A stretch of 64,000 nucleotides of DNA, taken from contig JAZOVV010000070.1 of the NCBI GenBank assembly GCA_045658925.1, positions 5,526-69,525 on the forward strand. The letters run 5' to 3'. This DNA comes from Eubacteriales bacterium. GTDB lineage: Bacteria; Bacillota; Clostridia; Oscillospirales; CAG-272. The position numbers and the translations under genes were made by a program. Below the pieces are notes generated by a model. It was not told where the DNA came from. It saw only the letters and a list, made by a program, of their open reading frames with translations, and ran no database searches. Positions 1 to 14,816 of this stretch are shown here, in pieces (position 1 is the first letter of the stretch; the number at the start of each line of letters is the position of its first letter).

Positions 1-860
1 GCGGTTCCGCAACAGGCGGTCACGTTATGTCCGATGCTTGGACAACCGAAAACAAACAGCACTTCCACAAGTGTACAGTAGACGGTTGTGACCATGTCGA
101 GGATACCGCAAACTGCTCCGGTGGCGAAGCAACCTGCTTTGCGGCGGCTAAATGCTCTGCCTGCGGCAAAGAATACGCCCCTGCCCTCGTTCATGATTAT
201 ACCAATACAGAAGACAACACAGTTAGATTCGCGGCAACCACCTGCCAAGAGTTCACCACCTATTGGTACGATTGCTCCCATTGCGGAAACAGCGCAAAGG
301 ACGATGTAAACGCAACTGACAAGTGGTACGAAAGCGACGAGGCAGGCAACCACGTCATGTCCGTCACTTGGACGACCGAAGACGGCAAGCACTTCCACAA
401 GTGTACAGTAGACGGTTGCGACTACACCTCAACTCCCGAAAACTGCTCCGGCGGTGAGGCAACCTGCACCGAGGGAGCAAAATGCTCTGCATGCGGCAAG
501 GAATACGAAACCGCTATCGGTCACGATTATACCAATACAGAAACCAACACGATTAGAACCACAGCAACCTATTGCAAAGAATTCAACACTTATTGGTACG
601 ATTGCTCTCGTTGCGGTGAAAGTGCAAAGGACGATGCAAACGCAACTGACAAGTGGTACACGAGTACCGAGGCAGGCAACCACATTATGTCCAACGCTTG
701 GACGACCGAAAACGGACAACACTTCCACAAGTGTACAGTAGCCGGTTGTGACCACACCTCGGAGCCCGAAAACTGCTCCGGCGGCGAAGCAACCTGCACC
801 GAGGCAGCTCAATGCTCTACTTGCGGCAAGGAATACGGTCCTGCTCCCAGCCACACCGCA
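1..860 (+). repeat. In-frame 330-nt (110-aa) tandem coding repeat, about 2.5 copies in the window and continuing upstream
   Basis: The ATGTCC...TGGAC(A/G)ACCGAA phase recurs at 27, 357 and 687. Confidence 0.85.
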
Positions 861-3800
861 GGCGCGGCAGCAACCTGCACCGCTCCTCAAATCTGTACCG
901 TATGTAGCGTAGTACTCTCCCCTGCTCACGGTCACGCTTGGGTAGCACCCACCTGCTTGGCTCCCCAAACCTGCACAACATGTGGTGCAACCCAAGGCGA
1001 AATCGGTGAGCACAACTTCGACAGCGCCGGTGTTTGCGGCACTTGCGGTAAAGTAACCGTAACAATCACTTTCCAAAGCGGAAACAGCAACGGCAACGAT
1101 GAAATCCTTCCCGCCATTTCCGGTTTTGCAGGCGATGCACTTCCCTCCATTCCCACTCCCACAAAGCCAAATTGCAGCTTTGGAGGTTGGTATACCGACG
1201 AGGCTTGCACGAATGCCTTTAGCGGAACCACCTTTAGCGCGTCTTTGACGCTTTATGCAAAGTGGACTTCCACTGTAAGCACAAGCAACGCGATTACTGT
1301 ATTGAGCTACTACGCCAATGGTAGTAACATGAGTTGGGACTATGCTGCTCCTATTAAACTAGCCATTCAGGCCGCAAATTATCCCGACGTAGTCTGTGTG
1401 CAATTATCGGGTGAGAGATGGAGGACTTTCACTCCTGATGGTTACACCGCGTCTTCGTTTAATAATAAATCAGAGAACACCAGGAACCTCGTGATTTATT
1501 ACAAGACCGACAAGTTCTCGGTAGTTGCCGGTAGTGGTAACACTTATTTTAACTACGTTGTTCTGAAAGACAAGAACGGTACTTCGTTCGCTGTCGTTAA
1601 CGCCCTATTTGAAACCGTAACAGAAGAGACCAAACATAATGAACTATGGGGAAGAATCAACGGCTTTTGGAATGACACAAACCGCGGCCTTATGCCTGTA
1701 ATTATAGCCGGTGCCTTTGGCAACAAAACGACTACCGATAGCATTGCTTACACCGGTCTGACCGGGGACTCCCGATTCGTTGATACTTCCAAGACTGCAA
1801 AGTCCATCACAGCTACAAACACTCCCCGCACCGGTGATTACGTCTTTGCTTCTTACCATATGCAATATTCGGTTGAAAGCTACAAGGTTTTAGACAAACA
1901 AAACACCAGCTGGCCGATTCTCGTCAGTGTAGCTATCCCCAAGGTTAGTTGTTCTCACCTCCTCGCAAAGACAGCAGCAGTTGATGTAACCTGCACGACC
2001 GCGGGCTGCAAGGAATATTACACCTGCACAAAATGCGGTAAGATTTTTGCCGACGCACAAGGTGTTGTTGAAACTACCGTAGCAGCTTGCACCATTCCTA
2101 CTCCCGGACGACACACGGCAGGCACACCTGCAACCTGCACCACCCCGCAAACCTGTATCAGATGCGATTACGTATTCCAGGAGGCGCTCGGCCACAATAT
2201 CATTATCGATAAAGCCGTTGCCGCTACCTGTACCACAACCGGTCTTACCGAAGGCCAACATTGCTCCAGATGCGACGGTGAAACCGTAACACAACAGGTT
2301 CTCGATGCTCTCGGCCACAATGCCGGAGCCGAGGCAACCTGCACCACCCCGCAAACCTGTACCAGATGTGGCCACGTACTCCAAGCCGCTCTCGGTCACG
2401 ACATCGTCATCGACAAGGCAGTTGACGCTACCTGCGAAACAAGCGGTCTTACCCATGGCTATCATTGCTCCAGATGCGACGATGCAACCGTAGAACAACA
2501 AGTTACCGATGCTCTCGTCCACAAGGCCGGAGCAGCGGCAACCTGCACCACCCCGCAAACCTGTACCAGATGCGGCCACGTGCTCCAGCCTGCTCTCAAT
2601 CACAACATCGTTATCGATGAGGCCGTTGCCGCTACCTGTACCACAACCGGTCTTACCGAAGGTTCTCATTGCACAAGATGCGATGACCTAACCGTAGAAC
2701 AACAGGTTATCAAGGCTCTCGGCCACAACATCGTCATTGACGAGGCCGTTGCCGCTACCTGTACCACAACCGGTCTTACCCGAGGCTATCATTGCTCCAG
2801 ATGCAATGATGAAACCGTAGAACAAGAAGTTATCGAGGCTCTCGGTCACAACATCGTCATTGACGAAGCCGTTGCCGCTACCTGCACCGCAACCGGTCTT
2901 ACCCAAGGCTCTCATTGCTCCAGATGCGATGATGAAACCGTAGAACAAGAAGTTACCAATGCCCTTGATCACAACATCGTCATCGACGAGGCAGTTGCCG
3001 CTACCTGCACCGCAACCGGTCTTACCCAAGGCTCTCATTGCTCCAGATGCGACGGTGCAACCGTAGAACAACAAGTTACCAAAGCTCTCGGTCACAACTA
3101 CGTCTGGGTAGTTGACGTTCAGCCCACCTTTGAAGCTGAAGGTGTTATGCATAAGGAATGTACAGTTTGCCACAGTACACGCAACGAAAACACTTCCGTA
3201 GATAAGCTTGCTTGCAGCCACGATCTTGCAAAGACAGAAGCAGTCGAGGCAACCTGCACAACTGCGGGCAACAAGGAGTATTACACTTGTTCTCTGTGTG
3301 AAAAGGTTTACTCCAATGCAGAGGGTACTCTTGAAACTACCCAAGAAGATTGCGTAATCGATGCTCTCGGCCACCAGGCCGGGGCATCGGCAACCTGCAC
3401 CACTGCTCAAACCTGTATTAGATGCGACCACGAATTCCAAACCGCGCTCGGTCACAACGAATTGGGCACCGTTGCTCACGTTGACGCAACCTGTACCAAA
3501 AACGGTGTAACAGGCGGCAATTACTGTGATCGCTGCAACGACGGCAAGGCAGCGGCTGAAGCAATCATTGAAAAACTCGGTCATAACGCCGACGGCTCTA
3601 TTCCTCACGTTGATGCGACCTGTACCCAACCCGGCGTAGTAGGCGGCACTTACTGTGACCGTTGTAACAGAGGTAAGGAAGCAGCCGAGAAGGTCATTTC
3701 CGCAAAGGGACACACCGCAGGCGCAACCGCAACCTGTACCAACGCTCAAACCTGTACCGTATGCGGTGCGGAAATCACCGCAGCTCTCGGTCACAACTAC

Positions 3801-6800
3801 AACAGAACGATCACTCACATTGATGCAACCTGCACCGAAGACGGTGTAACAGGCGGCACTTACTGCAGCCGTTGTAACGATGGCAGAGCAGAAGCCGGAG
3901 TTGTCCTTGAAAAACTTGGTCATAACACCGATGGCTCTATTGCTCACGTTGATGCAACCTGCACCGAAAACGGTGTAACAGGCGGTATTTACTGTAACCG
4001 TTGCAACAACGGCAAGGCAACAGCCGAAACCATCATTATAAAACTCGGTCATAACGCCGAGGGCTTTGTAAAACACGTTGATCCAACCTGTATCGAAACC
4101 GGTGTAACAGGCGGCATTTACTGTGACCGTTGTAACAGAGGTAAGGACGCAGCGGAAGCAGCTATCCCCGCTACCGGCCACAACGATTTGGGCAACGTTA
4201 ATCACGTTAATGCAACCTGCACCACATCCGGTATTGCCGGCGGTAAGTATTGTACCGTTTGTGATTACAACAAGGATGCAGCCGGAGCAGTTATCCCTGA
4301 AAAGGGCCACACCACAACCGAGGCTGCAACCTGTACCACCGCTCAAATCTGTACCGTATGTTATACACAACTCGCCGCCCCCCTCGGTCACACTTGGAAA
4401 AATGCAACCTGCACAGCTCCCCAGACTTGCTCTGTATGTCATGCAACCCAAGGTGAAGCTATCGATCACCAACTCAACAGTGCAGGCGTTTGCAGCATGT
4501 GCTCTCAAAGCTTTATGAGAACAGTCAAATTCCTTAATGGAAACATGAACACCGGCACTCAAATCGCCGAACCCGTTTCCGGTCTCGTTGGCGAAGAAAT
4601 CCCCTTCCCCGCTCCCCAAATGAGCAACTACAAAATTGTTGGTTGGTATCTCGACGAGGCTTGCACGAAGCCCTTTAACGAAACCACCTTTAGCGAGAAT
4701 TTGACACTTTATGCAAAGTGGGATTCCAACCCAACAGAGCAAACAACTGTATTGAGCTATTACGGCAATAATAGTAGCTGGACCAACGACGACGGTCCCG
4801 GTAAGCTTGCCATTAAAGACGCAAGTTCTCCCGACGTAATCTGCTTCCGAAAAATGGGATCGGGTTGGAAGACAATAACTGTTACGAATTACACCGCTTC
4901 TTCCCAAAACAAAAACACAGAGAAATTTATAACTTACTACAGAGCCGACAAGTTTACAGAAATCGACAGCGCGTATACCGGTGATTATAGTTATATTATT
5001 CTGCGACGCATAAGCAACGATACTCTGTTCGCTGTCGTTAACGTCCTATTTGAAAGCGGAACAGAAGAGACGAAACTTGCGAAGCTACAGGAAGGACTCA
5101 ACAATATTTGGAATAAAAACGGTCTTATGCCTACGATTATCGTCGGCGACTTTGGTAGCGCTACGACGACCGATAGCGCCGCCTACAAGGGGCTGACCGA
5201 AAACTCCCAATTCGTTGATGCTTCCAAGGTTGCAAAGTCAATCACAGGGGCGAGCAATACCGACCCCGGTCATTACGCATTTGCTTCTTACCATATGCAA
5301 TCTTCGGTTGAAAGCTACAAGGTTTTAACGGAGCGAAATGGCAAAGATCCGGTTCTTGTCACTGTAGCTCTTCCCAATGCTTGCGCACTCATAAAGACAG
5401 AAGCAACCGCTGCAACCTGTTTGGCTATGGGTAACAAGGAATACTACTACTGCTCTACTTGCGGAAAGATTTACCTTGATGCCATGGGTACTCGCGAAGT
5501 TACCGCGGCGGATTGCATGATTCCTGCTCTCGGCCACGATTGGACTGACGCAACCTGCACCTCTCCCAAGACCTGCTCCACCTGCGGTGTAACCGAAGGC
5601 GTAGCTCTCGACCACGTTTGGACAAATGCCTGCGATATCACATGTAACAACGATTGTGGTACCACCCGCATAGTCGAGCACGATTATGAATGGGTAATCG
5701 ATACTCCTCCCACCGTCACAACCGAAGGTGTTAAGCACGAGGAATGTACGGTTTGCCACGTAAAACGCAGTGAATACACCCCCGTAGATAAGCTTGCTTG
5801 CTCCCATGCTCTCGTAAAGACAGCAGCAACCGCTGCAACCTGCACGACCACAGGTAACAAGGAATATTACACTTGTTCCATCTGTAGAAAGGTTTACTCC
5901 GATGCAGAGGGTACCCTTGAAACTACCGTAGAGGGTTGCAAAATCGCTGTTCTCGATCATACTTGGGTAAATGCAACCTGCAATACTCCCAAGACCTGCT
6001 CCGTTTGTACTACAACCGTAGGCGAGGCTCTCGGTCACTCTTGGGTAGAGGCAACCTGCACAGCCCCCAGAACTTGCTCCGTTTGCCATGCAACCCAAGG
6101 TGAACCTATCGCCCACAACATCAATGATGCAAGCATTTGTACCCTTTGCGGCGGATATTTCCTGAGAACAATTCATTTCAAGGGCGGAAAGCTGTCGTCC
6201 GGCACATACGCCTACGATAACACCCAAATCGCTGCCTCTATTTACGGTTTGGTCGGTGAGAAATTCTCCTACCCCGAAATCACTCTTCAATTAAAGGGTT
6301 ACAACTTTGCCGGTTGGTGTACCGACTACGCTTGCACAAAGTCCTACACAGGAACCACCTTTAGCGAGGATATGACACTTTATGCAAAGTGGGTATCCAA
6401 TGCAAATCAAATCGTCACTGTAATGAGCTTTAACGTTAAGGTTCACGGACTTTTTGAGAGTAGCCGAACCGACCTTGTTGTAGGTACCATTCGTGACGCT
6501 AATCCCGACGTATTTGGCGTGCAAGAGGATGATAGTCTCTGGGTGACCTCGTTGAGAAGCGAATTTAAGAACGAGTATACCATTGTTGAAAAAAGCTCAG
6601 GCTCAAATGAATCCTGCGCAGTCTTCTACCGCACAAGCATGTTTACCTGCCTTGAAAGCGGTACCAAGTGGCTCTCCAACACTCCCGACAAAGCATCCAA
6701 GTATTCCTACACCGAAGGTGGAAAGACTTACACCGAAAACTACAACCGTATTATGACTTACGTTGTACTGCAACGCAACGACGGTGCAAAGTTCCTTTAC

Positions 6801-7214
6801 GTCAATACCCACCTCGACAATAACGGTGATAACTCTCATGAGGTAGCAGAAAAGATCAGAGAGGGAGAAGTTAAGAATATGATGAAAATCATTAACGGTA
6901 TTACCTCTAGATTCCCTAACATCCCTGTAATTGTAAACGGTGACTTTAACGTTGTACCCGACACCAGACTCGCTTACAACGCAATGACAGGAACCTACGG
7001 CTATCTTGATTCTTCCAGAATTGCAAAGGAAGGCGGCCCCTCAACAACCTTTACCGAAAGCAAGGATGAAAACAGCGGAATCATTCTCGACTACATTTTC
7101 GTTTCTCCTGACCTGAAGAATATGGTTGAAACATATTACGTTTGCCCCGCAAAGAGAAACGGAAAATGGGTTTCCGACCACAACGCAATCGTTGCTAAGA
7201 TTGCCATCCCCTAA
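1..7214 (+). CDS. Giant exported Cys-rich repeat protein, 5'-truncated by the window edge; three modules, each [4-Cys repeats]-[Listeria-Bacteroides-type repeat]-[EEP fold]
   Basis: ORF 27..7214 (2395 aa). The frame stays open back to nt 3, and GSATGGHV before the first Met matches the internal repeat ..EAGNHVMS.., so the true N-terminus lies upstream. Repeats of HFHKCTVxGC, ATCTxPQTCxRCGH and ATCTxTGLTxGxHCSRCD. GWYxDxACTxxF...LTLYAKW motifs end at 1265, 4721 and 6392. The C-terminal domain carries the EEP motif set. Confidence 0.85.
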   Translation, partial: GSATGGHVMSDAWTTENKQHFHKCTVDGCDHVEDTANCSGGEATCFAAAKCSACGKEYAPALVHDYTNTEDNTVRFAATTCQEFTTYWYDCSHCGNSAKDDVNATDKWYESDEAGNHVMSVTWTTEDGKHFHKCTVDGCDYTSTPENCSGGEATCTEGAKCSACGKEYETAIGHDYTNTETNTIRTTATYCKEFNTYWYDCSRCGESAKDDANATDKWYTSTEAGNHIMSNAWTTENGQHFHKCTVAGCDHTSEPENCSGGEATCTEAAQCSTCGKEYGPAPSHTAGAAATCTAPQICTVCSVVLSPAHGHAWVAPTCLAPQTCTTCGATQGEIGEHNFDSAGVCGTCGKVTVTITFQSGNSNGNDEILPAISGFAGDALPSIPTPTKPNCSFGGWYTDEACTNAFSGTTFSASLTLYAKWTSTVSTSNAITVLSYYANGSNMSWDYAAPIKLAIQAANYPDVVCVQLSGERWRTFTPDGYTASSFNNKSENTRNLVIYYKTDKFSVVAGSGNTYFNYVVLKDKNGTSFAVVNALFETVTEETKHNELWGRINGFWNDTNRGLMPVIIAGAFGNKTTTDSIAYTGLTGDSRFVDTSKTAKSITATNTPRTGDYVFASYHMQYSVESYKVLDKQNTSWPILVSVAIPKVSCSHLLAKTAAVDVTCTTAGCKEYYTCTKCGKIFADAQGVVETTVAACTIPTPGRHTAGTPATCTTPQTCIRCDYVFQEALGHNIIIDKAVAATCTTTGLTEGQHCSRCDGETVTQQVLDALGHNAGAEATCTTPQTCTRCGHVLQAALGHDIVIDKAVDATCETSGLTHGYHCSRCDDATVEQQVTDALVHKAGAAATCTTPQTCTRCGHVLQPALNHNIVIDEAVAATCTTTGLTEGSHCTRCDDLTVEQQVIKALGHNIVIDEAVAATCTTTGLTRGYHCSRCNDETVEQEVIEALGHNIVIDEAVAATCTATGLTQGSHCSRCDDETVEQEVTNALDHNIVIDEAVAATCTATGLTQGSHCSRCDGATVEQQVTKALGHNYVWVVDVQPTFEAEGVMHKECTVCHSTRNENTSVDKLACSHDLAKTEAVEATCTTAGNKEYYTCSLCEKVYSNAEGTLETTQEDCVIDALGHQAGASATCTTAQTCIRCDHEFQTALGHNELGTVAHVDATCTKNGVTGGNYCDRCNDGKAAAEAIIEKLGHNADGSIPHVDATCTQPGVVGGTYCDRCNRGKEAAEKVISAKGHTAGATATCTNAQTCTVCGAEITAALGHNYNRTITHIDATCTEDGVTGGTYCSRCNDGRAEAGVVLEKLGHNTDGSIAHVDATCTENGVTGGIYCNRCNNGKATAETIIIKLGHNAEGFVKHVDPTCIETGVTGGIYCDRCNRGKDAAEAAIPATGHNDLGNVNHVNATCTTSGIAGGKYCTVCDYNKDAAGAVIPEKGHTTTEAATCTTAQICTVCYTQLAAPLGHTWKNATCTAPQTCSVCHATQGEAIDHQLNSAGVCSMCSQSFMRTVKFLNGNMNTGTQIAEPVSGLVGEEIPFPAPQMSNYKIVGWYLDEACTKPFNETTFSENLTLYAKWDSNPTEQTTVLSYYGNNSSWTNDDGPGKLAIKDASSPDVICFRKMGSGWKTITVTNYTASSQNKNTEKFITYYRADKFTEIDSAYTGDYSYIILRRISNDTLFAVVNVLFESGTEETKLAKLQEGLNNIWNKNGLMPTIIVGDFGSATTTDSAAYKGLTENSQFVDASKVAKSITGASNTDPGHYAFASYHMQSSVESYKVLTERNGKDPVLVTVALPNACALIKTEATAATCLAMGNKEYYYCSTCGKIYLDAMGTREVTAADCMIPALGHDWTDATCTSPKTCSTCGVTEGVALDHVWTNACDITCNNDCGTTRIVEHDYEWVIDTPPTVTTEGVKHEECTVCHVKRSEYTPVDKLACSHALVKTAATAATCTTTGNKEYYTCSICRKVYSDAEGTLETTVEGCKIAVLDHTWVNATCNTPKTCSVCTTTVGEALGHSWVEATCTAPRTCSVCHATQGEPIAHNINDASICTLCGGYFLRTIHFKGGKLSSGTYAYDNTQIAASIYGLVGEKFSYPEITLQLKGYNFAGWCTDYACTKSYTGTTFSEDMTLYAKWVSNANQIVTVMSFNVKVHGLFESSRTDLVVGTIRDANPDVFGVQEDDSLWVTSLRSEFKNEYTIVEKSSGSNESCAVFYRTSMFTCLESGTKWLSNTPDKASKYSYTEGGKTYTENYNRIMTYVVLQRNDGAKFLYVNTHLDNNGDNSHEVAEKIREGEVKNMMKIINGITSRFPNIPVIVNGDFNVVPDTRLAYNAMTGTYGYLDSSRIAKEGGPSTTFTESKDENSGIILDYIFVSPDLKNMVETYYVCPAKRNGKWVSDHNAIVAKIAIP
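1290..1940 (+). other. Degenerate (probably catalytically dead) EEP-like domain, copy 1
   Basis: Aligns by eye to the C-terminal EEP domain, but the catalytic positions are replaced: SFNV->SYYA, VQED->VQLS, NTHLD->NALFE, NGDFN->AGAFG, SDHNAIV->SWPILV. Confidence 0.6.
2598..3089 (+). repeat. Four consecutive in-frame 123-nt (41-aa) coding repeats
   Basis: Unit starts at 2598, 2721, 2844 and 2967, with the next at 3090. Unit sequence: (N/G/D)H(N)IVIDEAVAATCTxTGLTxGxHC(S/T)RCxDxTVEQxVxxAL. Related, more diverged units run from about 2170 to 4320. Confidence 0.9.
4741..5375 (+). other. Degenerate EEP-like domain, copy 2
   Basis: Same alignment as copy 1: SYYG, CFRKMG, NVLFE, VGDFG, KDPVLV at the positions of the catalytic N/E/H/D-N/D-H. 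It shares FASYHMQxSVESYKVL with copy 1. Confidence 0.6.
6405..7211 (+). other. Intact endonuclease/exonuclease/phosphatase (DNase I-like) domain
   Basis: MSFNVKV, GVQEDD, YVNTHLDN, VNGDFNV and WVSDHNAIVAKI appear in the canonical EEP order. Confidence 0.75.
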
Positions 7215-7328: not shown

Positions 7329-7375
7329 GCCGCCGGCAAGAAGGCTTTTCCCTCCTTGCCGGCGGTTTTGCTTTT
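7329..7375. terminator. Bidirectional intrinsic terminator between convergent genes
   Basis: 12-bp GC-rich stem GCCGCCGGCAAG / CTTGCCGGCGGT (7329-7340 / 7355-7366). An A-run sits upstream and TTTTGCTTTT downstream. Confidence 0.7.
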
Positions 7376-7614: not shown

Positions 7615-8706
7615 TCAGTTATCCTTTTGGAGCAGATGGCATGCCGCAAAATGTCCGGGCTCGTACTCCCTGTAAGAAGGGGTTACGTGCTTGCATTTTT
7701 CGGTTGCATGCGGGCATCTGGTATGGAAGCGGCATCCCTTGGGCGGGTTGGTGGGCGACGGAATGTCTCCCCCCAGCACGATGCGGTTCATCTTGATATC
7801 GGGATTGGGGTACGGAATCGCAGAGAACAACGCTTTTGTATAGGGATGGAGCGGATTTGCGAAAATATCCTGCTTGGAACCAAACTCGACCATAGAACCG
7901 AGATACATAACGCCAACCTTATCGGAAATAAACTTAACAACCGAGAGGTCGTGAGAAATGAACAGATAGGTCAAGTTCATGGATTTTTGCAGATCCTTGA
8001 GCAAATTGATGATTTGCGCCTGAATGGAAACGTCGAGTGCGGAAACCGGCTCGTCACAAATCACAAGCTTGGGCTTGACCGAGAGTGCACGTGCGATGCA
8101 GATTCTTTGGCGCTGACCGCCCGAAAATTCGTGAGGATATCTTTCGTAATAGTAATCACGCAATCCGCACTTTCTCATCAAATCCATAACGTATTCCTTC
8201 ACCTCGTTATTGGGAACGATGTGGTGCACCTTTACGGGCTCGGAGAGGATCTCTCCAACCGTGGAACGTGGGGGCAAAGAGGAATATGGGTCTTGGAAGA
8301 TGATCTGCATATCGGTGCGCAAATGACGCATTTGCGCATTGCTATACTTGGTAATGTCCTCACCGTTAAAAATGATACGGCCGCCGCTGGGCTGATGGAG
8401 CTTGAGAACGGTTCTTCCCATTGTGGTCTTACCGCATCCCGATTCGCCAACGATACCGAGTGTTTCGCCCGGCTTGAGCGTAAAGGATACGTCATCCACC
8501 GCAACAAGCTCTTTTTGAACCTGACCCAACAGATTTTTCTTTACGGGGAATCTCTTGCACAGATGTCTTACCTCAAGCAATGCCTCGGGGTCAAAGGGCT
8601 TTCCTATATCTGCTGCAATACGGGCGCTTTTTTCTTCGGCTTCTTTTGTAGCGATAGCCTCATCGTCATACAGAACGGTGTCTTCTGTTTTGCGTATTTC
8701 AGCCAT
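7615..8706 (-). CDS. oppF: Oligopeptide ABC transporter ATP-binding protein OppF
   Basis: Walker A GESGCGKTT, signature FSGGQRQR, Walker B LVICDEPVSALD, and a C-terminal Cys/His oligopeptide-type extension (CRFHTRCP..C..C). Overlaps oppD by 8 nt. Confidence 0.9.
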   Translation of the reverse strand: MAEIRKTEDTVLYDDEAIATKEAEEKSARIAADIGKPFDPEALLEVRHLCKRFPVKKNLLGQVQKELVAVDDVSFTLKPGETLGIVGESGCGKTTMGRTVLKLHQPSGGRIIFNGEDITKYSNAQMRHLRTDMQIIFQDPYSSLPPRSTVGEILSEPVKVHHIVPNNEVKEYVMDLMRKCGLRDYYYERYPHEFSGGQRQRICIARALSVKPKLVICDEPVSALDVSIQAQIINLLKDLQKSMNLTYLFISHDLSVVKFISDKVGVMYLGSMVEFGSKQDIFANPLHPYTKALFSAIPYPNPDIKMNRIVLGGDIPSPTNPPKGCRFHTRCPHATEKCKHVTPSYREYEPGHFAACHLLQKDN

Positions 8707-9931
8707 TGTTCTCGCCCTCCTCTGTGTAAAGATGGCACGCTACAAAGTGCGTGGGGCTCAACTGAACCATACCCGGGTATTCGCCCGAGCACTTTTTGGT
8801 GCATTTTGAGCAACGCTCTTTAAAATAGCAGTGGTTCGGCATATTCACAGGGTTGGGAACATTGCCGGGAATGTTAAACAACTGATCGGAATCCGAATCC
8901 ATCGTGGGCTTGGATTTTTGCAAACCAACGGTGTAAGGATGCTTGGGATTGTGGAAGATCTCGCGAACAGTTCCCTGCTCTATCGCGCGGCCTGCGTACA
9001 TAACAACAACGTAGTCTGCCATTTCGGCAACAACGCCAAGGTCGTGGGTGATGAGCAGGATGGAGCCGTTGATCTTATCCTTCAAGCTTCTGAAAAGATC
9101 GAGGATCTGTGCTTGAATGGTTACGTCAAGCGCGGTTGTGGGCTCATCTGCAATGATCAATCTCGGGTTGCAAGCCAACGCCATTGCAATCATAACAGGC
9201 TGTCTCATACCGCCCGAAAGCTCGTGGGGGTAAGAATTATATACGTGCTCGGGATCGGCAATACCAACGAGAGTGAGCATCTTTAAGGATGCTTCCTTTG
9301 CCATCTCCTTGGTTGCACCGGGAACGTGGACAAAGGTAACCTCATCGAGCTGGTTGCCGATGGTGAATACGGGATTGAGCGAGGTCATCGGCTCTTGGAA
9401 GATCATCGCGATTTGACGGCCTCTGATGCGGTAAATCTCGTGTACGGGCATATTGGCAATGTCGTAAACCTTTTCTTCGGTTTCAAAGTAGGTATTGCCA
9501 TCCGCATCCTCGAAAGCAATCGGGTCTCCGTTTTCGTCTCGCTTGTAGTCCTCGGAATTGAAGCGGATCTGCCCCGAAACGATTTGGCCCGCAGGGCCCT
9601 GAATGAGCTGCATAACAGACATACTCGTAACCGACTTTCCGCATCCCGATTCGCCAACGATACCTACGGTTGCATTTTTGGGTACGTTGAAGGATACACC
9701 GTTTACCGCCTTTACAACACCTTGGTCGGTGTAAAAGTAGGTGTGGAGATTCTCAATTTCGAGAATGTTGTTCTTATCCTTCATTTTAGTGACAAATTCG
9801 CTTTCATCGGCACGTCTGTGCTTATGCTTTTCCAACGCGCGGGTAATCTTGCGATTTTCCCTTGCGATTGCGCGAATTTCTTTGCCCGACAGATAGTGGC
9901 TATCCTTTTTGGTATTTGTCTTATCTGCCAC
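8699..9931 (-). CDS. oppD: Oligopeptide ABC transporter ATP-binding protein OppD
   Basis: GESGCGKS, LSGGMRQP, IIADEPTTALD and a C-terminal CYFKERC..C..C motif. I place the start at GTG 9931, which is preceded by AGGAGG (9939-9944) with a 7-nt spacer and lies just after the oppC stop (9936-9938). The track start at 10009 would overlap oppC by 74 nt. Confidence 0.9.
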   Translation of the reverse strand: MADKTNTKKDSHYLSGKEIRAIARENRKITRALEKHKHRRADESEFVTKMKDKNNILEIENLHTYFYTDQGVVKAVNGVSFNVPKNATVGIVGESGCGKSVTSMSVMQLIQGPAGQIVSGQIRFNSEDYKRDENGDPIAFEDADGNTYFETEEKVYDIANMPVHEIYRIRGRQIAMIFQEPMTSLNPVFTIGNQLDEVTFVHVPGATKEMAKEASLKMLTLVGIADPEHVYNSYPHELSGGMRQPVMIAMALACNPRLIIADEPTTALDVTIQAQILDLFRSLKDKINGSILLITHDLGVVAEMADYVVVMYAGRAIEQGTVREIFHNPKHPYTVGLQKSKPTMDSDSDQLFNIPGNVPNPVNMPNHCYFKERCSKCTKKCSGEYPGMVQLSPTHFVACHLYTEEGENNG

Positions 9932-9935
9932 GCCG

Positions 9936-11033
9936 TCACCTCCTTGCCTTGGGGTCAAGGGCATCTCTAAGTCCGTCGCCAACAAAGTTGAATCCAAGAA
10001 CGGCAACAACGATGCAAATACCGGGAGGTGCCCAAATGTTGATGTAGTTTTCCAAAATGTTGAGATCGCTTGCGGCGTTAATCATCGTTCCCCAAGCTGC
10101 ATAAGGCGGTTGAACGCCCATGTTCAAGAAGGACAGCGATGCTTCGTAAAGAATCATGCTACCAAGGCTGAGCGTCATAGAAACGATCAGCTGCGGCATA
10201 ATGTTGGGAACGAGATGCTTGAAGATTTTACGTCCTGTGGAATATCCCATTGCCTCAGCGGCTACCATATATTCCTGCTCGCGCAGAGAGAGGATTTGAC
10301 CTCTTACAAGGCGTGCCGTGCCGGGCCACGAGAACAGTGTCAGGAATGCCATCAGGAAGTAGATTCTGTATTGGGGATCGCCCATAAAGTCTTGAATAAC
10401 GTTGGGGTTCTCCAACTCACCGAATGCGGTGAGCACGGTACCGAATACCAGCATGATGGGAAATCCGGGAATACACATCAGAATATCGCAGATACGCATG
10501 ATCAAATTGTCGATCACGCCGCCGAAATAGCCTGCGATGCCTCCCATAATAACGCCAAAAAAGGTGATGATAAATACCGAGATGAAACCAATGATCAGCG
10601 AAATGCGGCCACCGTACATCAATCTTGTCAAAACGTCGTAGCCCGTTTCATCGGTTCCGAGAGGATGCTCTGCGCTCAAGGGAGCGAGGGCGTTCTCTTT
10701 TTCGGTCTTTTCGGTAATTTGATAAATGGTATGCGTCTTTCCGTCCTTTTCGTATTCAATCGTCTTAGAGGTGTACTCTACGATCGGGCTCTGGTCAACC
10801 TCGATTTCGCCCCACTTGTTGTAAACAACGGGGCCGAGGAAGCAGAACAGGAAGAGAGAGACCAACATAATAATGCCGATGACACTGAGCTTGGAACGGA
10901 AGAATCGACGAAGGACCATTTGCGTAGGCGACATCAGTCGCACGTTGCGGTCGAGCGGCTCGTCTGCTTCTTGCTCCTCAATCACAAGATTTTTCGTCTC
11001 ATCAACAGCTTGCTTATTTTCAATATCTTTCAT
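9936..11033 (-). CDS. oppC: Oligopeptide ABC transporter permease OppC
   Basis: Polytopic protein with the binding-protein-dependent permease loop AAEAMGYSTGRKIFKHLVPNIMP. Sits in the opp gene order. Confidence 0.9.
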   Translation of the reverse strand: MKDIENKQAVDETKNLVIEEQEADEPLDRNVRLMSPTQMVLRRFFRSKLSVIGIIMLVSLFLFCFLGPVVYNKWGEIEVDQSPIVEYTSKTIEYEKDGKTHTIYQITEKTEKENALAPLSAEHPLGTDETGYDVLTRLMYGGRISLIIGFISVFIITFFGVIMGGIAGYFGGVIDNLIMRICDILMCIPGFPIMLVFGTVLTAFGELENPNVIQDFMGDPQYRIYFLMAFLTLFSWPGTARLVRGQILSLREQEYMVAAEAMGYSTGRKIFKHLVPNIMPQLIVSMTLSLGSMILYEASLSFLNMGVQPPYAAWGTMINAASDLNILENYINIWAPPGICIVVAVLGFNFVGDGLRDALDPKARR

Positions 11034-11048
11034 TACGTGTCCCCTCCT

Positions 11049-12011
11049 TTACTGCAATTTAACACGAGGGTCTACCACAGCATACATCAGGTCTGCCAAA
11101 AGCACACCGATGATGCTGAGCAACGCAAGGAACATATTATAACCCATAATAACGGGAACGTCACCTACGATCATTGCCTTGTACGCCGTATTACCGATGC
11201 CGGGCAGGTCAAAGATCTGTTCGGTGATGATTGCGCCCGAGAAGAGCGAGGGTAACAATCCCGCAAGGCTTGTAACAAGCGGAATCATGGTATTTCTAAA
11301 TGCGTGCTTGTAAATAACAACACGCTCTTTTAAGCCTTTGGCTCTTGCCGTACGAATATAATCGGAGCTCAATACCTCAAGCATATTGGTACGGGTCATT
11401 CTCATTCTTCCGCCAATACTGAGTATTACTACGGTTGTGATCGGCAATATGAGATATTTGATGTATTCAAAAACGTAAGCAATTCCCGTTGCGGATTGCG
11501 TTGCATCGCCGAGACCGGATGACGGCAGCCATCCAAGTCCCGATGCAAAGATTCCCTTCAGAATTTGTCCAAAGAAGAACGACGGCAACGAAATACCGAT
11601 CATAACGAGTACCGTAACAAGATAATCACGGAAGGAATACTGGTGGGTTGCGGCGGTGATACCGAGAGGGATAGCAATCATAAATTCAAATATTGTTGCC
11701 AGAGCGGCTACAATAAAGGAAACGAACATATCTCTCTTGATAACGTCAACAACGGGCATGCTTTGCGTAAAGCTCTCACCAAAATCGAGGGTGATAATAC
11801 GCTTGAGCCACTCGCCGTAACTCATATCATACATCTTCATAATCGCTTCCTTGGTGGATTGATCTACGATCGCGCCGCCCGCGTTCATTTCGTTGATCTT
11901 ATTTTCAGCGAAACTCGAGGGCATATTTTGAATGAGCACGAACAAGATCAATGACACACCAAGCAATATGAATACCGACAGAAGAAGTCTTTTCAATATG
12001 TATTTTAACAT
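11049..12011 (-). CDS. oppB: Oligopeptide ABC transporter permease OppB
   Basis: MLKYILKRLL N-terminus and the IRTARAKGLKERVVIYKHAFRNTMIPLVT permease signature. Confidence 0.9.
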   Translation of the reverse strand: MLKYILKRLLLSVFILLGVSLILFVLIQNMPSSFAENKINEMNAGGAIVDQSTKEAIMKMYDMSYGEWLKRIITLDFGESFTQSMPVVDVIKRDMFVSFIVAALATIFEFMIAIPLGITAATHQYSFRDYLVTVLVMIGISLPSFFFGQILKGIFASGLGWLPSSGLGDATQSATGIAYVFEYIKYLILPITTVVILSIGGRMRMTRTNMLEVLSSDYIRTARAKGLKERVVIYKHAFRNTMIPLVTSLAGLLPSLFSGAIITEQIFDLPGIGNTAYKAMIVGDVPVIMGYNMFLALLSIIGVLLADLMYAVVDPRVKLQ

Positions 12012-12041
12012 AAACTACTCCAAATTTTGTCAAGCGTGAAA

Positions 12042-14816
12042 TCAGCTTGCAAATTCAATTTCCCAAATGCGGTCCAGGGGAGAGGTGTAGGGGTTAATCT
12101 CACCGGGGAGAGATTCGCTCTTGATGATGTTGGAATTGTATGCATAAAGCACGTCTCTTTGGTAAACAGGGAGCTCAATTGCAAGATCGAGAACGTATCC
12201 CATAGCCTCTTTGTAAAGTTCTGTACGAACTGCTTGATCCTCGGTCTCACGAGCCTCGTCAATAACTGCACTGAGGTCGTTGAGGATCTTGTTTTCTTCT
12301 ACATAAGTCGAGGGAGATGCAAGAATTTCGCGGTAACCCCAAGCGAGAACGCTGGTTGCGGTGGAATTCTTGTGGTAAACCTGATACATATCAGGGTCAA
12401 CGGTGCTACCCCATGCAGCTGCCCAAACCGCGAGCGAACCTGTGGTCAGCTTTGTGAGTGCTTGGGTATCCGGAACAACCTCGATATCCCATCCCATCTC
12501 GTTGAGCAGGTCTGCTGCCGCACGGAAGGTAAGATAAGTCGGGTGATCGGTCAGGTCTGCACCTGCAATGGTAAACTTGAGAGAAAGCTTGGAATCGCCC
12601 GCGGATACGCCTGCTTCGTTCATATAATATTGAATCTGTTCCATTGCGCTCTCTTTGCTATATTGAATAGAGGGATAATCGTGTCCGTTCAAACGGTCGT
12701 TGTTACCAAGCTCATCCTTCGGGTATGCCCAGCTTACGGTGGACATAGGCCAATAGATGTTCTCGGCAGTTCCTACGCTATAGTAGCTGAGAGCCAAGGA
12801 AGTATCCATTGCGCACATAATCGCCTTACGGATGTTGATGTTGGGAACCTTACCTGCGTTAATACCGATATAACCGTAACCGAGCTGGTCGGTGTTCAGC
12901 TTCTTAACGCCGTCAGCCGCCATTGCGTTGAGTTGGTTAATGTTGTATTGGGTGTATTGGGGAGAAATGTAGTGAACCGAGCCCTCTTTGAGTGCTGCGA
13001 TTGCGTTGGATGTGCTAACAACACGGTAACGAATCTTCTCGATTTTGGGTTGACCCATCAAGAAGTTATCGTTTCTCTTGAAGTAAACTACGTTATCTGC
13101 AAAGAATGCGTCTTCCTTGGGGTTGTCGCTGTTGTTTCTATCGGTAGCCTTGTATGCGCCGGCACCCATAGGAACCTTAATGTTTCTGGTGGATTGGATT
13201 TCGTTTCTCATAAAGTCGAAGGACGCAAACTCAACACCAAAGTTGTTGTTTTCAATGTCAACTGTGTAGCCTTCTGCATAGTAGTGCTGAGGAGCTACTG
13301 CAAATGCAAAGTTCCAAATAGCCTTGGGGTCAACGCCGTTGATAGTGATTTCGAGAACGTCGTATTCGTCTGCGTTTGCGGGAGTGCCATCCTCGTTGTG
13401 CTCACGCGCAACGGTGTAGGTGGTGTCACCAATGGTTACGGAAGGAGTGTTTGTGGTATGACCAAGGGATTTGATACCCGAAATGTTTTGAACTGCAAGC
13501 TGACCGCCCACAGAGCTTTCACGAAGGATAACTTCCTTTGCCTGTGCGGTGTACTGTGTACGAAGCTCGGTTGCAGTGCCCCAAGCGGTCAAAATTTCGC
13601 CAAGTGCGTTTTCTACCTTATGATTGTATACGTAGTTGATTGCGGAGGTCTTGTCGGTTACAACAGCAGTGTTGTATTGAGGAGTCAGTTTTTCAATCTT
13701 TGTTCTGTCCTCTTTACCGTTTTCGTCGGTTGCGTACTTAACTTCTACGTAACCTTCCAAGAACATAAAGCAGAATACTTCATCCTTAAACTGTTCGATG
13801 GATTTATAGGGCTCTTCAGTAAAGGAGTCCTTTGCGCCTGCGTAATCTCTTTCGAGCTCTTCCTTAAAGAGCTTCAAGGTCAGTTCATAGTCGGCAAGGA
13901 GCTGATCGTTGGTTACGGTGTTGGGAGTAGCCGAAACAGCCTTTTTATAACCGCTGGAAAGAGTGTGGTTCTTGATTGCGTTGACCATAGTGGTGTAATC
14001 CGCGCTGTAAGCACCTTGTGTGGGCGTTCTGCCAACCTGTTGATAGAGGTTGAGCAATTCCTTAATACGGTCGCCTGCTCTGCCTGCTGCCGCGCTGGAA
14101 AGTGCATCGTCTGCATTGTTGTTACCGGAACCGAGGGTTTGGGTTCTGTAGTTTTGCAGACCAACGATATCGGTGGAATACATGGTGGACGAGCCCGTGT
14201 ATACGGGGTCGAGATAAACGTACATATTGAAGAGTACGTCTTCGATGGTCAAGGGATGACCGTCAGAGAATTGGATACCGTTTTTGATAACAAAGGTGTA
14301 AACCGTTGTATCGTCGCTATCGTTGTGAACGATAGACATATCCTTAACAACAACTGCTTCGTTATCGCCGTATGCAACGGTAACTTCACCGTTCTTATAA
14401 CCGGTGGTAAGCATACCGATCTGCGTCATAGACACGATGGTGCCGTCATTGGCACTGGTCGAGAAGAAGGGGTTGAACAAGCCGTCAAGCTGCTCTGTCA
14501 TAATAACGAATGCATCGGGTGCTTTTGCTCCCTGCTCCTTTTTGGGAAGAAGCAAGAGAACAGGAACAAGAATTGCAACTACAAGAACTGCTGCAATAAT
14601 GGGAATGAGCTGCTTTTTGGTCAATTTTTTGCCTTTTTTAGTTTTTACAGAAGTGGGAACTACTTTGGCGGAAATGGTTGTCTCTTTAGAAACTGTCACT
14701 TCCACACCGTTCTCTTCCGTAACAGTTTCTTCGACAAAAGTTTCCTTGATGGTAACTTCCTCGGAAGCAACTTCTTCGGGAATGTTTTCTTCGTTGGGGA
14801 TTTTGTTTTCTTCCAT
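12042..14816 (-). CDS. oppA: Unusually large (924 aa) family-5 (OppA-like) solute-binding protein with an acidic N-terminal tail and a single TM anchor
   Basis: AGGAG RBS 7 nt upstream. The N-terminal 65 aa or so are E/V/T-rich, followed by KKGKKLTKKQ and the TM LIPIIAAVLVVAILVPVLLLL; there is no lipobox Cys. The SBP_bac_5-like core follows (FNPFFSTSANDG.., VYTFVIKNGIQFSDGHPLTIEDVLF..). Located directly upstream of oppBCDF. Confidence 0.85.
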   Translation of the reverse strand: MEENKIPNEENIPEEVASEEVTIKETFVEETVTEENGVEVTVSKETTISAKVVPTSVKTKKGKKLTKKQLIPIIAAVLVVAILVPVLLLLPKKEQGAKAPDAFVIMTEQLDGLFNPFFSTSANDGTIVSMTQIGMLTTGYKNGEVTVAYGDNEAVVVKDMSIVHNDSDDTTVYTFVIKNGIQFSDGHPLTIEDVLFNMYVYLDPVYTGSSTMYSTDIVGLQNYRTQTLGSGNNNADDALSSAAAGRAGDRIKELLNLYQQVGRTPTQGAYSADYTTMVNAIKNHTLSSGYKKAVSATPNTVTNDQLLADYELTLKLFKEELERDYAGAKDSFTEEPYKSIEQFKDEVFCFMFLEGYVEVKYATDENGKEDRTKIEKLTPQYNTAVVTDKTSAINYVYNHKVENALGEILTAWGTATELRTQYTAQAKEVILRESSVGGQLAVQNISGIKSLGHTTNTPSVTIGDTTYTVAREHNEDGTPANADEYDVLEITINGVDPKAIWNFAFAVAPQHYYAEGYTVDIENNNFGVEFASFDFMRNEIQSTRNIKVPMGAGAYKATDRNNSDNPKEDAFFADNVVYFKRNDNFLMGQPKIEKIRYRVVSTSNAIAALKEGSVHYISPQYTQYNINQLNAMAADGVKKLNTDQLGYGYIGINAGKVPNINIRKAIMCAMDTSLALSYYSVGTAENIYWPMSTVSWAYPKDELGNNDRLNGHDYPSIQYSKESAMEQIQYYMNEAGVSAGDSKLSLKFTIAGADLTDHPTYLTFRAAADLLNEMGWDIEVVPDTQALTKLTTGSLAVWAAAWGSTVDPDMYQVYHKNSTATSVLAWGYREILASPSTYVEENKILNDLSAVIDEARETEDQAVRTELYKEAMGYVLDLAIELPVYQRDVLYAYNSNIIKSESLPGEINPYTSPLDRIWEIEFAS

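What the first reader, a model, noticed from the sequence alone, without database searches (positions are those of the whole stretch)
1..7214. Giant exported protein made of three [Cys-repeat]-[List-Bact repeat]-[EEP] modules in which two EEP domains are catalytically dead and only the last is intact
Seen in sequence. The three modules are 1-1940, 1941-5375 and 5376-7211. Each ends with GWYxDxACT...LTLYAKW followed by a domain of about 210-270 aa. The three terminal domains align to each other by eye. The last has the complete EEP motif set: SFNV, QEDD, NTHLD, NGDFN, SDHNAIV. The first two have substitutions at every one of those positions: SYY; VQLS/FRKM; NALFE/NVLFE; GAFG/GDFG; SWPILV/KDPVLV. 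They nonetheless keep the surrounding scaffold (PDVxC, FAVVN, MPxII, FASYHM, ESYKVL). Established knowledge: these motifs supply the metal-binding and catalytic residues of DNase I-like nucleases, phosphatases and sphingomyelinases. Inference: the gene arose by internal triplication, and two copies were retained as pseudo-enzyme (binding or scaffold) domains. This would be a secreted nuclease or phosphodiesterase with two decoy or substrate-recruiting domains, all mounted on a very Cys-rich stalk.
Basis: partly seen in the sequence, partly recalled or inferred. Interest (0 to 1): 0.7.

Follow-up and report, generated by a model that had tools for sequence, protein, structure and literature searches.

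The report
Giant surface protein, two dead EEP domains
The window holds the last two-thirds of a 3,611-residue surface protein from an uncultured gut-type Clostridia bacterium that has one intact phosphoesterase domain at its far end and two older, catalytically dead copies of the same fold, which are still kept by selection and probably serve as binding or scaffold modules.

Summary
One ORF (frame 3, + strand) runs from the left window edge to the stop at 7212-7214. It is the C-terminal 2,403 aa of a 3,611-aa protein (P0081), whose missing N-terminus has a lipobox-like signal peptide. The ORF contains three [Cys/His repeat array]-[Flg_new]-[EEP-fold] modules.

Only the last EEP domain (D3) has the full catalytic set. 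D1 and D2 get no Pfam or NCBIfam hit but are true EEP homologues:
- BLASTP against D3 gives E 7e-12 and 5e-10.
- A profile built only from active homologues hits both.
- AlphaFold models have pLDDT 86-89, one made without any active EEP in the alignment, and both superpose best on BT3783-type EEP structures.

D1 and D2 have lost most catalytic residues and a ~27-aa loop. D2 is still under purifying selection (dN/dS 0.27, against 0.29 for the live D3).

- The dead domains belong to an old, rare lineage of their own. It also occurs in a few other giant proteins and in small phage-borne proteins, so this is not a recent in-gene triplication.
- D3's nearest characterised relative is a sugar phosphatase, so "nuclease" is unproven.
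- The Cys stalk matches the putative zinc-binding modules of the T. ramosa IgA protease.

This is a new variant of a known kind, of moderate interest.

The parts
3..7214 (+). C-terminal 2,403 codons plus stop of a 3,611-aa gene. The first 1,208 codons lie left of the window.
   Evidence: Open frame from nt 3. It is the exact suffix of P0081.
3..1052 (+). Cys/His-rich repeat array: about 110-aa units (330-bp period, 2.5 copies) followed by short H...C...CxxC units.
   Evidence: TRF finds 21-837, period 330, 81% matches.
1053..1268 (+). Flg_new (Listeria-Bacteroides repeat), copy 1.
   Evidence: Best Pfam PF09479 stretch is aa 354-420.
1272..1949 (+). D1, a catalytically dead EEP-fold domain. 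Its versions of the catalytic motifs are SYY, QL, NALFE, GAFG, DYVF and NTS.
   Evidence: No Pfam hit. BLASTP against D3 gives E 7e-12. The active-only HMM scores 13+31 bits. AF2 gives pLDDT 88.6, and Foldseek matches 3mpr/4c1r at E 1e-14 to 1e-12.
1950..4508 (+). Long Cys/His repeat stalk: units of about 41, 43 and 68 aa, plus about 55-aa units related to ZBD1/ZBD2 of the T. ramosa IgAse.
   Evidence: TRF finds 2130-2728 (period 204), 2592-3098 (period 123, 88% matches) and 3813-4137 (period 129). phmmer against the 9qa6 sequence gives E 1.6e-12. ZBD description: PMC12237041.
4509..4721 (+). Flg_new, copy 2.
   Evidence: Pfam reports 3 stretches. It is 83% identical to the P0082 orthologue. 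dN/dS is 0.17.
4722..5384 (+). D2, a catalytically dead EEP-fold domain. Its versions of the catalytic motifs are SYY, RK, NVLFE, GDFG, HYAF and NGK.
   Evidence: BLASTP against D3 gives E 5e-10. The active-only HMM scores 36 bits. AF2 with a dead-only alignment gives pLDDT 86.3, and Foldseek matches 3mpr/3g6s/4c1r at about E 1e-12. dN/dS is 0.27.
5385..6155 (+). Cys/His repeat linker made of ZBD-like units.
   Evidence: Translation. It is 85% identical to P0082, with dN/dS 0.27. TRF finds 5951-6095.
6156..6395 (+). Flg_new, copy 3 (ends in GWCTDYACT...MTLYAKW).
   Evidence: Pfam reports 3 stretches. It is 91% identical to the P0082 orthologue.
6396..7211 (+). D3, an intact EEP phosphoesterase domain with SFN, QE, NTHLD, GDFN, DYIF, SDH and the WLSNTP loop.
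   Evidence: Pfam PF03372 gives E 4.7e-13. There are 77 homologues in Clostridia MAGs. The best solved relatives are 4c1r/3mpr at E 3.6e-11.
7330..7375 (.). GC-rich hairpin flanked by an A-run and a T-run. It is a likely bidirectional terminator shared with the convergent opp operon.

Best explanation
The gene encodes a giant (3,611 aa) surface protein of an uncultured Clostridia (Ruminococcaceae-like) bacterium.

Shown:
- The N-terminal signal sequence is lipobox-like.
- A very long stalk is built from Cys/His mini-modules related to the putative zinc-binding ZBD modules of the T. ramosa IgA protease.
- Three [Flg_new-EEP] supermodules are present.
- Only the C-terminal EEP domain (D3) has the full metal-binding and catalytic residue set.
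- D1 and D2 are true EEP-fold homologues that have lost most of that set and a substrate-side loop.
- D2 evolves under purifying selection as strong as that on D3.
- The dead domain type is an old, rare lineage, always preceded by Flg_new. It is reused in a few other giant proteins that end in a live EEP, and in small phage-encoded proteins.

Inferred:
- The protein is tethered to the cell by its N-terminus and presents one Mg2+-dependent phosphoesterase at the distal tip.
- D1 and D2 cannot hydrolyse phosphoesters. They act as non-catalytic modules, most likely binding modules that hold the protein on a polymeric, phosphate-bearing surface or matrix substrate so that the single live domain can work on it. 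This is analogous to carbohydrate-binding modules derived from dead glycosidases.
- I slightly favour a phosphorylated glycan or glycopolymer over DNA as D3's substrate class, because its nearest characterised relative is the mannose-6-phosphatase BT3783.
For: - Architecture and motifs.
- Homology of D1 and D2 to active EEPs: and 63 (a profile of 41 active homologues with no window sequences).
- Fold: for D1. for D2, with an alignment of dead domains only. The top hits are 3mpr, 3g6s and 4c1r in both cases.
- Selection: one search gives D2 0.27 (CI 0.17-0.40), D3 0.29, and the Flg_new copies 0.14-0.17.
- Recurrence of 'dead copies upstream, live copy at the C-terminus': P0082 and P0131 have 3 dead + 1 live. 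P0083/P0134, P0086 and P0088 have 1 degenerate + 1 live.
- Dead domains are always preceded by Flg_new.
- Phage-borne standalone [Flg_new-dead EEP] proteins sit next to a minor head protein and a terminase fragment.
- Export: N-termini of P0081, P0131, P0086 and P0134.
- Stalk.
- D3 subfamily: and PMC4978465.
- Precedents for EEP pseudoenzymes that bind rather than cleave: EEPD1 (PMC12988330) and Crc (fold hit 4jg3).
Against: - No ligand is known and no binding site could be mapped.
- Within the dead clade the ten former catalytic columns are no more conserved than average (mean pairwise identity 0.38 against 0.465 overall, P=0.17). A conserved ligand pocket at the old active site is therefore not evident. 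This fits a spacer role or divergent specificities equally well.
- dN/dS rests on one orthologue pair and a simple Nei-Gojobori estimate. For D1 only a 45%-identical paralogue-like partner was available (0.50, with dS near saturation).
- D3's activity and substrate are untested. A weak, sub-threshold OB-fold hint at the N-terminus (Pfam tRNA_anti-codon E 0.005; nothing in the PDB) would favour nucleic acid instead.
- The neighbour-joining tree may group the dead domains partly through long-branch attraction, although their shared loop deletions argue for common descent.
Confidence: 0.55

Rival explanations
1. D1 and D2 are purely structural spacers. They are rigid globular beads that, together with the Flg_new and zinc modules, extend the stalk and have no ligand of their own. 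Selection preserves only their fold.
For: The former active-site columns are unconstrained within the dead clade, and the invariant residues are mostly core or hydrophobic. The rest of the protein is a repetitive stalk. dN/dS of D2 equals that of the Cys linker (0.27 for both).
Against: A 220-aa degenerate enzyme is a costly spacer when 40-aa zinc modules are amplified freely in the same gene. The same dead module is the C-terminal, and apparently functional, domain of roughly 380-aa phage-borne proteins that have no stalk to extend. The Flg_new-EEP pairing is strictly conserved.
Confidence: 0.22
2. D1 and D2 are protein-protein interaction modules. They might mediate oligomerisation or binding to a host or bacterial protein, as in the EEP pseudoenzymes EEPD1 (a dimeric clamp) and Crc (a partner of Hfq).
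For: Both documented EEP pseudoenzymes work through macromolecular assembly rather than catalysis (PMC12988330; Crc-Hfq entry 8bvm listed). DNase I itself binds actin (1atn).
Against: Similarity to Crc and EEPD1 is only at fold level (E 1e-8 to 1e-9, 13-15% identity). No partner gene is conserved next to the gene: the neighbours are a convergent opp operon and an S8 protease.
Confidence: 0.12
3. D1 and D2 are neo-functionalised enzymes with a new active site or chemistry, not pseudoenzymes.
For: Some residues are invariant across the dead clade, including His in FASYH, Asp in FVD, and several Ser, Tyr and Asn residues. Purifying selection is present.
Against: The His/Asp-containing motifs have counterparts in active EEPs (the LD in GYLDSS; the strand DYIFVS), so they look structural. 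No new conserved polar cluster is evident. The metal ligands (Asn of SFN, Glu of QE) are gone in D1 and D2.
Confidence: 0.06
4. On D3's substrate: the protein is an extracellular, cell-tethered DNase/RNase of the SpnA/SsnA type that degrades extracellular DNA (biofilm matrix, nutrient scavenging), with D1 and D2 as DNA-holding domains.
For: The EEP catalytic set is intact. There are weak NCBIfam hits to exodeoxyribonuclease III (E 1e-7, far below the cut-off). There is a sub-threshold OB-fold hit in the N-terminal domain of P0081 (E 0.005). DNase I, TDP2 and LINE-1 endonuclease appear among the fold matches.
Against: The best sequence and structure relatives are BT3783 (a sugar phosphatase) and uncharacterised Bacteroides EEPs, not nucleases. 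The OB-fold hint is not significant and has no PDB support. There is no LPXTG anchor, unlike SpnA/SsnA (own knowledge of that family). The protein ends at ...AKIAIP.
Confidence: 0.35

Closest known systems
BT3783 (PDB 4C1R/3MPR), mannose-6-phosphatase of the Bacteroides thetaiotaomicron yeast-mannan PUL, with the uncharacterised EEPs 3G6S and 3L1W
   Same: It is the closest solved relative of D3 by sequence (E 3.6e-11; shared QE, N.H.D, GDFN, D.IFVS and WLSxTP motifs). It is also the top structural match of the D1 and D2 models.
   Different: BT3783 is a ~300-aa single-domain periplasmic enzyme. Here the domain sits at the end of a 3,611-aa stalk, preceded by Flg_new, with two dead paralogues upstream. 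D3's activity is untested.
EEP pseudoenzymes: metazoan EEPD1 (PMC12988330) and Pseudomonas Crc
   Same: They have the EEP fold with key catalytic residues lost, kept for binding rather than cleavage. Both appear among the fold matches (9yxy, 4jg3, 8bvm).
   Different: There is no specific sequence relationship. Those proteins are intracellular and single-copy, and they act on DNA forks or with Hfq/RNA. Here the dead domains are extracellular, tandem with a live paralogue in one chain, and paired with Flg_new.
Putative zinc-binding domains ZBD1/ZBD2 of the Thomasclavelia ramosa IgA protease (IgAse; 9QA6 sequence; PMC12237041)
   Same: The ~55-aa 'CSHxLxKT..ATCTTxGNKEYYTCxxCxK' units and the 'WVVDxxPT...HxECTVCH' units of the stalk match ZBD segments (E 1.6e-12). 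The paper predicts H2C2/C3H zinc sites and no disulfides.
   Different: IgAse has two such domains, whereas this protein has dozens of units in several sub-types. Zinc binding is only predicted in both cases.
Clostridia 'endonuclease/exonuclease/phosphatase family protein' with a Flg_new (TIGR02543) repeat, e.g. P0005, P0010, P0034, P0045
   Same: They have the same live [Flg_new-EEP] supermodule, 48-67% identical to D3.
   Different: These are 300-450-aa proteins with one live domain and no dead copies or giant stalk.
Cell-wall-anchored streptococcal nucleases SpnA/SsnA (OB-folds + EEP + LPXTG; own knowledge, not tested against sequences here)
   Same: They are surface-tethered proteins with an intact EEP domain and possibly nucleic-acid-binding accessory domains.
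   Different: There is no LPXTG motif, the OB-fold is not confirmed, D3 is closer to sugar-phosphatase-type EEPs, and those proteins have no dead EEP copies.

Membership tests
EEP superfamily (Pfam PF03372 Exo_endo_phos), D3 | Significant match to the family profile | tested here: met
   E 4.7e-13, 49.8 bits against a cut-off of 24.5
EEP superfamily, D3 | Complete catalytic and metal-binding residue set (Asn, Glu, Asn/His/Asp, Asp/Asn, Asp, Asp-His) | tested here: met
   SFN, QE, NTHLD, GDFN, D, SDH, identical to all active homologues
EEP superfamily, D3 | Mg2+-dependent phosphoester hydrolysis | not testable with these tools
   Needs an enzyme assay
EEP superfamily, D1 and D2 | Homology to, and the alpha/beta-sandwich fold of, EEP enzymes | tested here: met
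   Pfam and NCBIfam give no hit. BLASTP against D3 gives E 7e-12 and 5e-10. The active-only HMM hits both. AF2 gives pLDDT 88.6 and 86.3, and Foldseek gives E about 1e-13 to 3mpr/3g6s/4c1r.
EEP superfamily, D1 and D2 | Complete catalytic and metal-binding residue set | tested here: not met
   D1: SYY, QL, NALFE, GAFG, D, NTS. D2: SYY, RK, NVLFE, GDFG, H, NGK. They are EEP-fold homologues but not EEP enzymes.
BT3783-like sugar-phosphatase EEP subgroup, D3 | Closest sequence relationship and the shared WLSxTP loop motif | tested here: met
   4c1r/3mpr give E 3.6e-11. KWLSNTPD aligns with FWLSETPD.
BT3783-like sugar-phosphatase EEP subgroup, D3 | Phosphatase activity on mannose-6-phosphate or phosphorylated glycans | not testable with these tools
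   Activity is reported for BT3783 only (PMC4978465)
Surface-anchored OB-fold/EEP nucleases (SpnA/SsnA type) | N-terminal OB-fold nucleic-acid-binding domain(s) | tested here: inconclusive
   Pfam tRNA_anti-codon gives E 0.005, 17 bits against a cut-off of 27. No significant PDB sequence hit.
Surface-anchored OB-fold/EEP nucleases (SpnA/SsnA type) | C-terminal LPXTG sortase signal | tested here: not met
   The protein ends ...SDHNAIVAKIAIP* with no LPXTG or TM segment. Anchoring, if any, is N-terminal.
Flg_new / Listeria-Bacteroides repeat (PF09479, TIGR02543) | Profile match | tested here: met
   Three stretches, E 9.9e-23. TIGR02543 also gives three stretches.
IgAse-type ZBD zinc-binding modules | Sequence similarity to ZBD1/ZBD2 | tested here: met
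   E 1.6e-12, three stretches
IgAse-type ZBD zinc-binding modules | Zinc coordination by H2C2/C3H sites | not testable with these tools
   Zinc binding is only predicted in the reference paper too. The units here carry the H...C...CxxC pattern.
Bacterial lipoprotein | Signal peptide ending in a lipobox with Cys at +1 | tested here: inconclusive
   P0081 has ...LLVNAAIA-C23, read by eye. Relatives P0086 (..TVAS-C) and P0134 (..TIAS-C) are clearer. No predictor was available.

The most novel reading that the evidence does not exclude
The [Flg_new-dead EEP] supermodule is a previously unrecognised, enzyme-derived binding domain for a phosphate-containing cell-surface or matrix polymer such as teichoic acid, phosphoglycan or eDNA. 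It is exchanged between giant Clostridia surface enzymes, where it targets a live EEP, and phage virion-associated proteins, where it would act as an adhesion or receptor-binding module.
Probability: 0.2. Interest if true: 0.7.

Novelty: new variant of a known kind. Interest (0 to 1): 0.5.

Why it matters
Pseudoenzyme domains are well documented for kinases, proteases and glycosidases. For the EEP fold, the only examples I found are intracellular: Crc, and EEPD1 described in 2026.

This case shows a rare extracellular EEP pseudoenzyme lineage: 11 representatives at E<=1e-30 among 1.84 billion protein clusters. The lineage is under purifying selection, is repeatedly placed upstream of a live paralogue in the same giant chain, and has also been picked up by phages. 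If the dead domains bind the substrate polymer, they would be a new class of targeting module for phosphoester-bearing glycopolymers or eDNA in gut-type anaerobes. They would also be a possible phage adhesion domain.

The protein is also an extreme example of the still-unvalidated Cys/His 'ZBD' mini-modules, with dozens of units. That makes it useful for testing whether these modules are zinc-stabilised stalk elements in anaerobe surface proteins.

Tried and rejected
- Pfam and NCBIfam scans of D1 and D2 alone found nothing, so homology had to be shown by pairwise BLASTP, a custom active-only profile and structure prediction.
- The word-indexed homologue search with the dead-domain profile found only 3 proteins. 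The exhaustive HMMER search was needed to find the giant relatives.
- Scans of GTDB representative genomes with the dead-domain profile and with D3 found no confirmed locus. The IMG/VR scan with the dead-domain profile also found none.
- The look-up of encoding contigs has no record for P0081, so the upstream 1,208 codons could be read only as protein.
- The afdb50 fold library was unavailable. BFVD gave only generic viral EEPs with no close relative.
- The N-terminal 'OB-fold' idea has only a sub-threshold Pfam hit and no PDB sequence support. I did not rely on it.
- The sphingomyelinase reading was rejected as unsupported. No SMase appears among the top 50 structural matches or the sequence hits.
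- An artefact or pseudogene reading was rejected. The ORF is uninterrupted, and an independent metagenome assembly (L004) carries a colinear orthologue with dN/dS well below 1.
- Literature searches found no description of extracellular or bacterial tandem EEP pseudoenzymes.

Full report
**What is in the sequence.** A single open frame (frame 3, + strand) runs from the left edge of the window to a stop at 7212-7214. No stop precedes nt 3, so the gene is truncated by the window. The exhaustive protein search returned P0081 (3,611 aa, NCBI-derived, on a 78.8-kb contig). Its last 2,403 residues are identical to the window's translation. The missing 1,208 residues contain:
- a hydrophobic signal sequence (MKKYNLVAIIFCFVLLVNAAIAC);
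- a ~110-aa beta-rich domain with only a sub-threshold OB-fold hit;
- about 30 'DHxCDYGC' mini-repeats, followed by larger Cys/His repeats.

The relatives P0086 and P0134 begin with clear lipoprotein-type signals (..VASC..IASC). Export is therefore supported, and N-terminal lipid anchoring is plausible.

The window is chromosomal, since it carries nusA-infB at 42982-47665. NusA is 85-94% identical to proteins labelled 'Clostridia bacterium' or 'Ruminococcaceae bacterium' MAGs.

**Architecture.** Pfam finds three Flg_new repeats and one Exo_endo_phos domain at aa 2141-2393. The coordinates are in the parts list.

The visible protein is 5.8% Cys (140 Cys). The repeats are also visible as DNA tandem arrays of period 330, 204, 123, 129 and 78 bp. 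Several unit types match the putative zinc-binding domains ZBD1/ZBD2 of the Thomasclavelia ramosa IgA protease (E 1.6e-12). In that protein they are predicted to hold H2C2 or C3H zinc sites and no disulfides (PMC12237041). The 'Cys-rich stalk' is therefore best read as a chain of zinc-stabilised mini-modules.

**Are D1 and D2 EEP domains?** Yes. Pfam and NCBIfam do not detect them, but four other lines agree:
- BLASTP of D1 and D2 against D3 gives E 7e-12 and 5e-10.
- A profile built from 41 active homologues, containing no window sequence and no dead domain, hits D1 (13 + 31 bits) and D2 (36 bits, E 2e-13 for this single-sequence search) along the whole domain.
- An AlphaFold model of D1 has pLDDT 88.6 and pTM 0.89. 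It matches EEP structures, with 3mpr, 3g6s and 4c1r first (E 1e-14 to 1e-12, TM 0.74-0.79), then TDP2, nocturnin, CNOT6L and DNase I.
- That D1 alignment contained active EEPs, so I modelled [Flg_new2-D2] from an alignment of ten dead modules only. It has pLDDT 86.3 and pTM 0.74 and gives the same top hits.

**Are they dead?** The alignments place the substitutions in the catalytic columns.

| Motif in live D3 | D1 | D2 |
|---|---|---|
| SFN | SYY | SYY |
| QE | QL | RK |
| NTHLD | NALFE | NVLFE |
| GDFN | GAFG | GDFG |
| D of DYIF | D | H |
| SDH | NTS | NGK |

Both metal ligands (Asn of SFN, Glu of QE) and the Asp-His pair are gone in both domains. Both also lack the ~27-aa 'WLSxTP...' segment and two shorter loops found in active relatives. 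All terminal domains of related proteins keep every one of these residues. Loss of phosphoesterase activity is therefore a strong inference, though not an experiment.

**Are they decaying or retained?** An independent metagenome contig (L004) encodes P0082, which is colinear with the last ~900 residues at 68-88% identity. Nei-Gojobori dN/dS values:

| Region | dN/dS |
|---|---|
| D2 (dead) | 0.27 (bootstrap CI 0.17-0.40) |
| D3 (live) | 0.29 (0.20-0.39) |
| Flg_new2 | 0.17 |
| Flg_new3 | 0.14 |
| Cys linker | 0.27 |

The dead domain is thus as constrained as the live one. Within the dead clade, however, the ten former catalytic columns are no more conserved than an average column (0.38 against 0.465 mean pairwise identity, P=0.17). 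Whatever is selected is not the old catalytic constellation.

**History.** The dead-domain profile finds only 55 proteins at E<=1e-3, and 11 at E<=1e-30, among 1.84 billion cluster representatives. It finds none in GTDB representative genomes or IMG/VR. The strong hits are:
- giant proteins with the same logic. P0082 and P0131 have three dead domains and one live C-terminal EEP. P0083/P0134, P0086 and P0088 have one degenerate and one live domain;
- proteins of ~380-470 aa (P0001-3, P0084) that consist of Flg_new plus a dead EEP, preceded in P0001, P0003 and P0084 by a further N-terminal segment. They lie on short contigs next to phage genes: a minor head protein and a terminase large-subunit fragment, both with PHROG matches.

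Every dead EEP is preceded by Flg_new. In a neighbour-joining tree the dead domains form one clade and the live terminal domains another. Partly degenerate domains (P0086_d1, P0088_d1, P0089: SFN, QE, GDFN and SDH or SNH kept, but the His of NTHLD lost) sit at the base of the dead clade. D2 and D3 each have a one-to-one orthologue in P0082.

The three Flg_new copies are about equally distant from one another (46-51% identity). So the module has indeed been duplicated, but the dead lineage is old and shared. It is not the product of a recent triplication inside this gene.

A more extreme relative, P0090/P0132 (Lachnospiraceae MAG, MCR4728637.1), has seven degenerate EEP domains, none intact, plus a GDSL lipase domain.

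**What D3 does.** D3 belongs to a modest family of Clostridia MAG proteins (77 hits). Many are ~300 aa and some carry Flg_new. Its nearest solved relatives are 4c1r/3mpr (BT3783) and 3g6s (E 3.6e-11 and 2.2e-9), and it shares the WLSxTP loop with them. BT3783 was assayed as a phosphatase on phosphorylated sugars and was used to dephosphorylate high-mannose N-glycan (PMC4978465). The hits to exonuclease III models are far below their cut-offs. The substrate therefore cannot be assigned. I slightly favour a phosphorylated glycan or glycopolymer over DNA.

**Mechanistic model.** The protein is secreted and probably tethered by its N-terminus. A very long zinc-module stalk carries three Flg_new-EEP units, and only the distal one is catalytic. 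The two proximal units are non-catalytic EEP-fold modules under selection. Three observations make a binding or targeting role for a polymeric, phosphate-bearing substrate the most likely reading, at roughly 0.4 for that specific step:
- their reuse as the terminal domain of small phage proteins;
- the strict pairing with Flg_new;
- the precedents of EEPD1 and Crc.

A pure spacer role is the main rival, followed by protein-protein interaction and neo-functionalisation.

**Context.** Downstream lies a strong hairpin with flanking A and T runs (7330-7375). Beyond it is a convergent opp-type ABC transporter operon (7615-14816, minus strand). Next comes a second giant surface protein at 15712-23049 (minus strand), with subtilase S8, PA, Fn3-like and BspA-type LRR domains and a C-terminal TM segment. 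No neighbouring gene gives a functional clue for the EEP protein.

**Verdict.** This is a new variant of a known kind, namely an extracellular, tandem, selected EEP pseudoenzyme lineage. I rate its interest as moderate.

Noticed in passing
L001:1318-2460 (P0002); L002:376-1521 (P0001); L005:130-1554 (P0084): Small standalone [Flg_new-dead EEP] proteins lie on short contigs with phage-type genes. P0002 follows a minor head protein (phrog_115, E 2e-55). P0001 follows a terminase large-subunit fragment (phrog_38, E 1e-6). P0001 and P0003 start with 'ITREEQYLSYIAG'-type repeats. This looks like a phage-borne use of the dead domain.
   Followed up: partly
P0090 / P0132 (MCR4728637.1, Lachnospiraceae MAG); not in the window: A 3,270-3,306-aa protein has seven strongly degenerate EEP-fold domains, none with an intact catalytic set, plus one GDSL lipase domain. 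It has low Cys content (1%) and an acidic C-terminal tail. It is an all-pseudoenzyme array.
   Followed up: partly
window 15712-23049 (- strand): A second giant (2,445 aa) surface protein: signal/TM at the N-terminus, subtilase S8 with a PA insert, an Fn3-like domain, seven BspA-type LRR_5 regions and a C-terminal TM segment with a charged tail.
   Followed up: partly
window 7615-14816 (- strand): An opp/dpp-type ABC peptide transporter operon, convergent with the EEP gene. Its solute-binding protein is unusually long (924 aa; the SBP_bac_5 domain covers only aa 516-818).
   Followed up: no
window 2592-3098: 4.1 tandem copies of a 123-bp unit with 88% matches encode nearly identical 41-aa 'ALGHNIVIDEAVAATCT..GLT.GSHCSRCDDETVEQ' modules. 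This suggests recent in-gene amplification of stalk units and likely length variation between strains.
   Followed up: no
P0081 residues ~230-760 (upstream of the window): About 30 copies of a ~20-aa 'C(E/A)D(T/A)D(K/T)DH.CDYGC...FGT' mini-repeat, rich in Asp, His and Cys. It matches no Pfam family and looks like a metal-binding array of another type.
   Followed up: no
window 59266-62055 (- strand): A 929-aa protein with a BNR/sialidase-like beta-propeller signal and a C-terminal Flg_new repeat. It is another Flg_new-tagged putative surface enzyme in the same genome stretch.
   Followed up: no
window 23239-26163 (+) and 29623-31233 (+): Two large proteins carry thioredoxin-fold (AhpC/TSA, Redoxin) domains. 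The second also has 4Fe-4S binding motifs. This may be extracytoplasmic thiol-redox machinery close to very Cys-rich exported proteins.
   Followed up: no
P0086_d1, P0088_d1, P0089 (not in the window): 'Half-dead' EEP domains keep SFN/QE/GDFN/D/SDH (P0088_d1 has SFS/QN/SNH instead of SFN/QE/SDH) but replace the His of NTHLD (CAQFD, NIQLD). They branch at the base of the dead clade and may be intermediates or altered-specificity enzymes.
   Followed up: no
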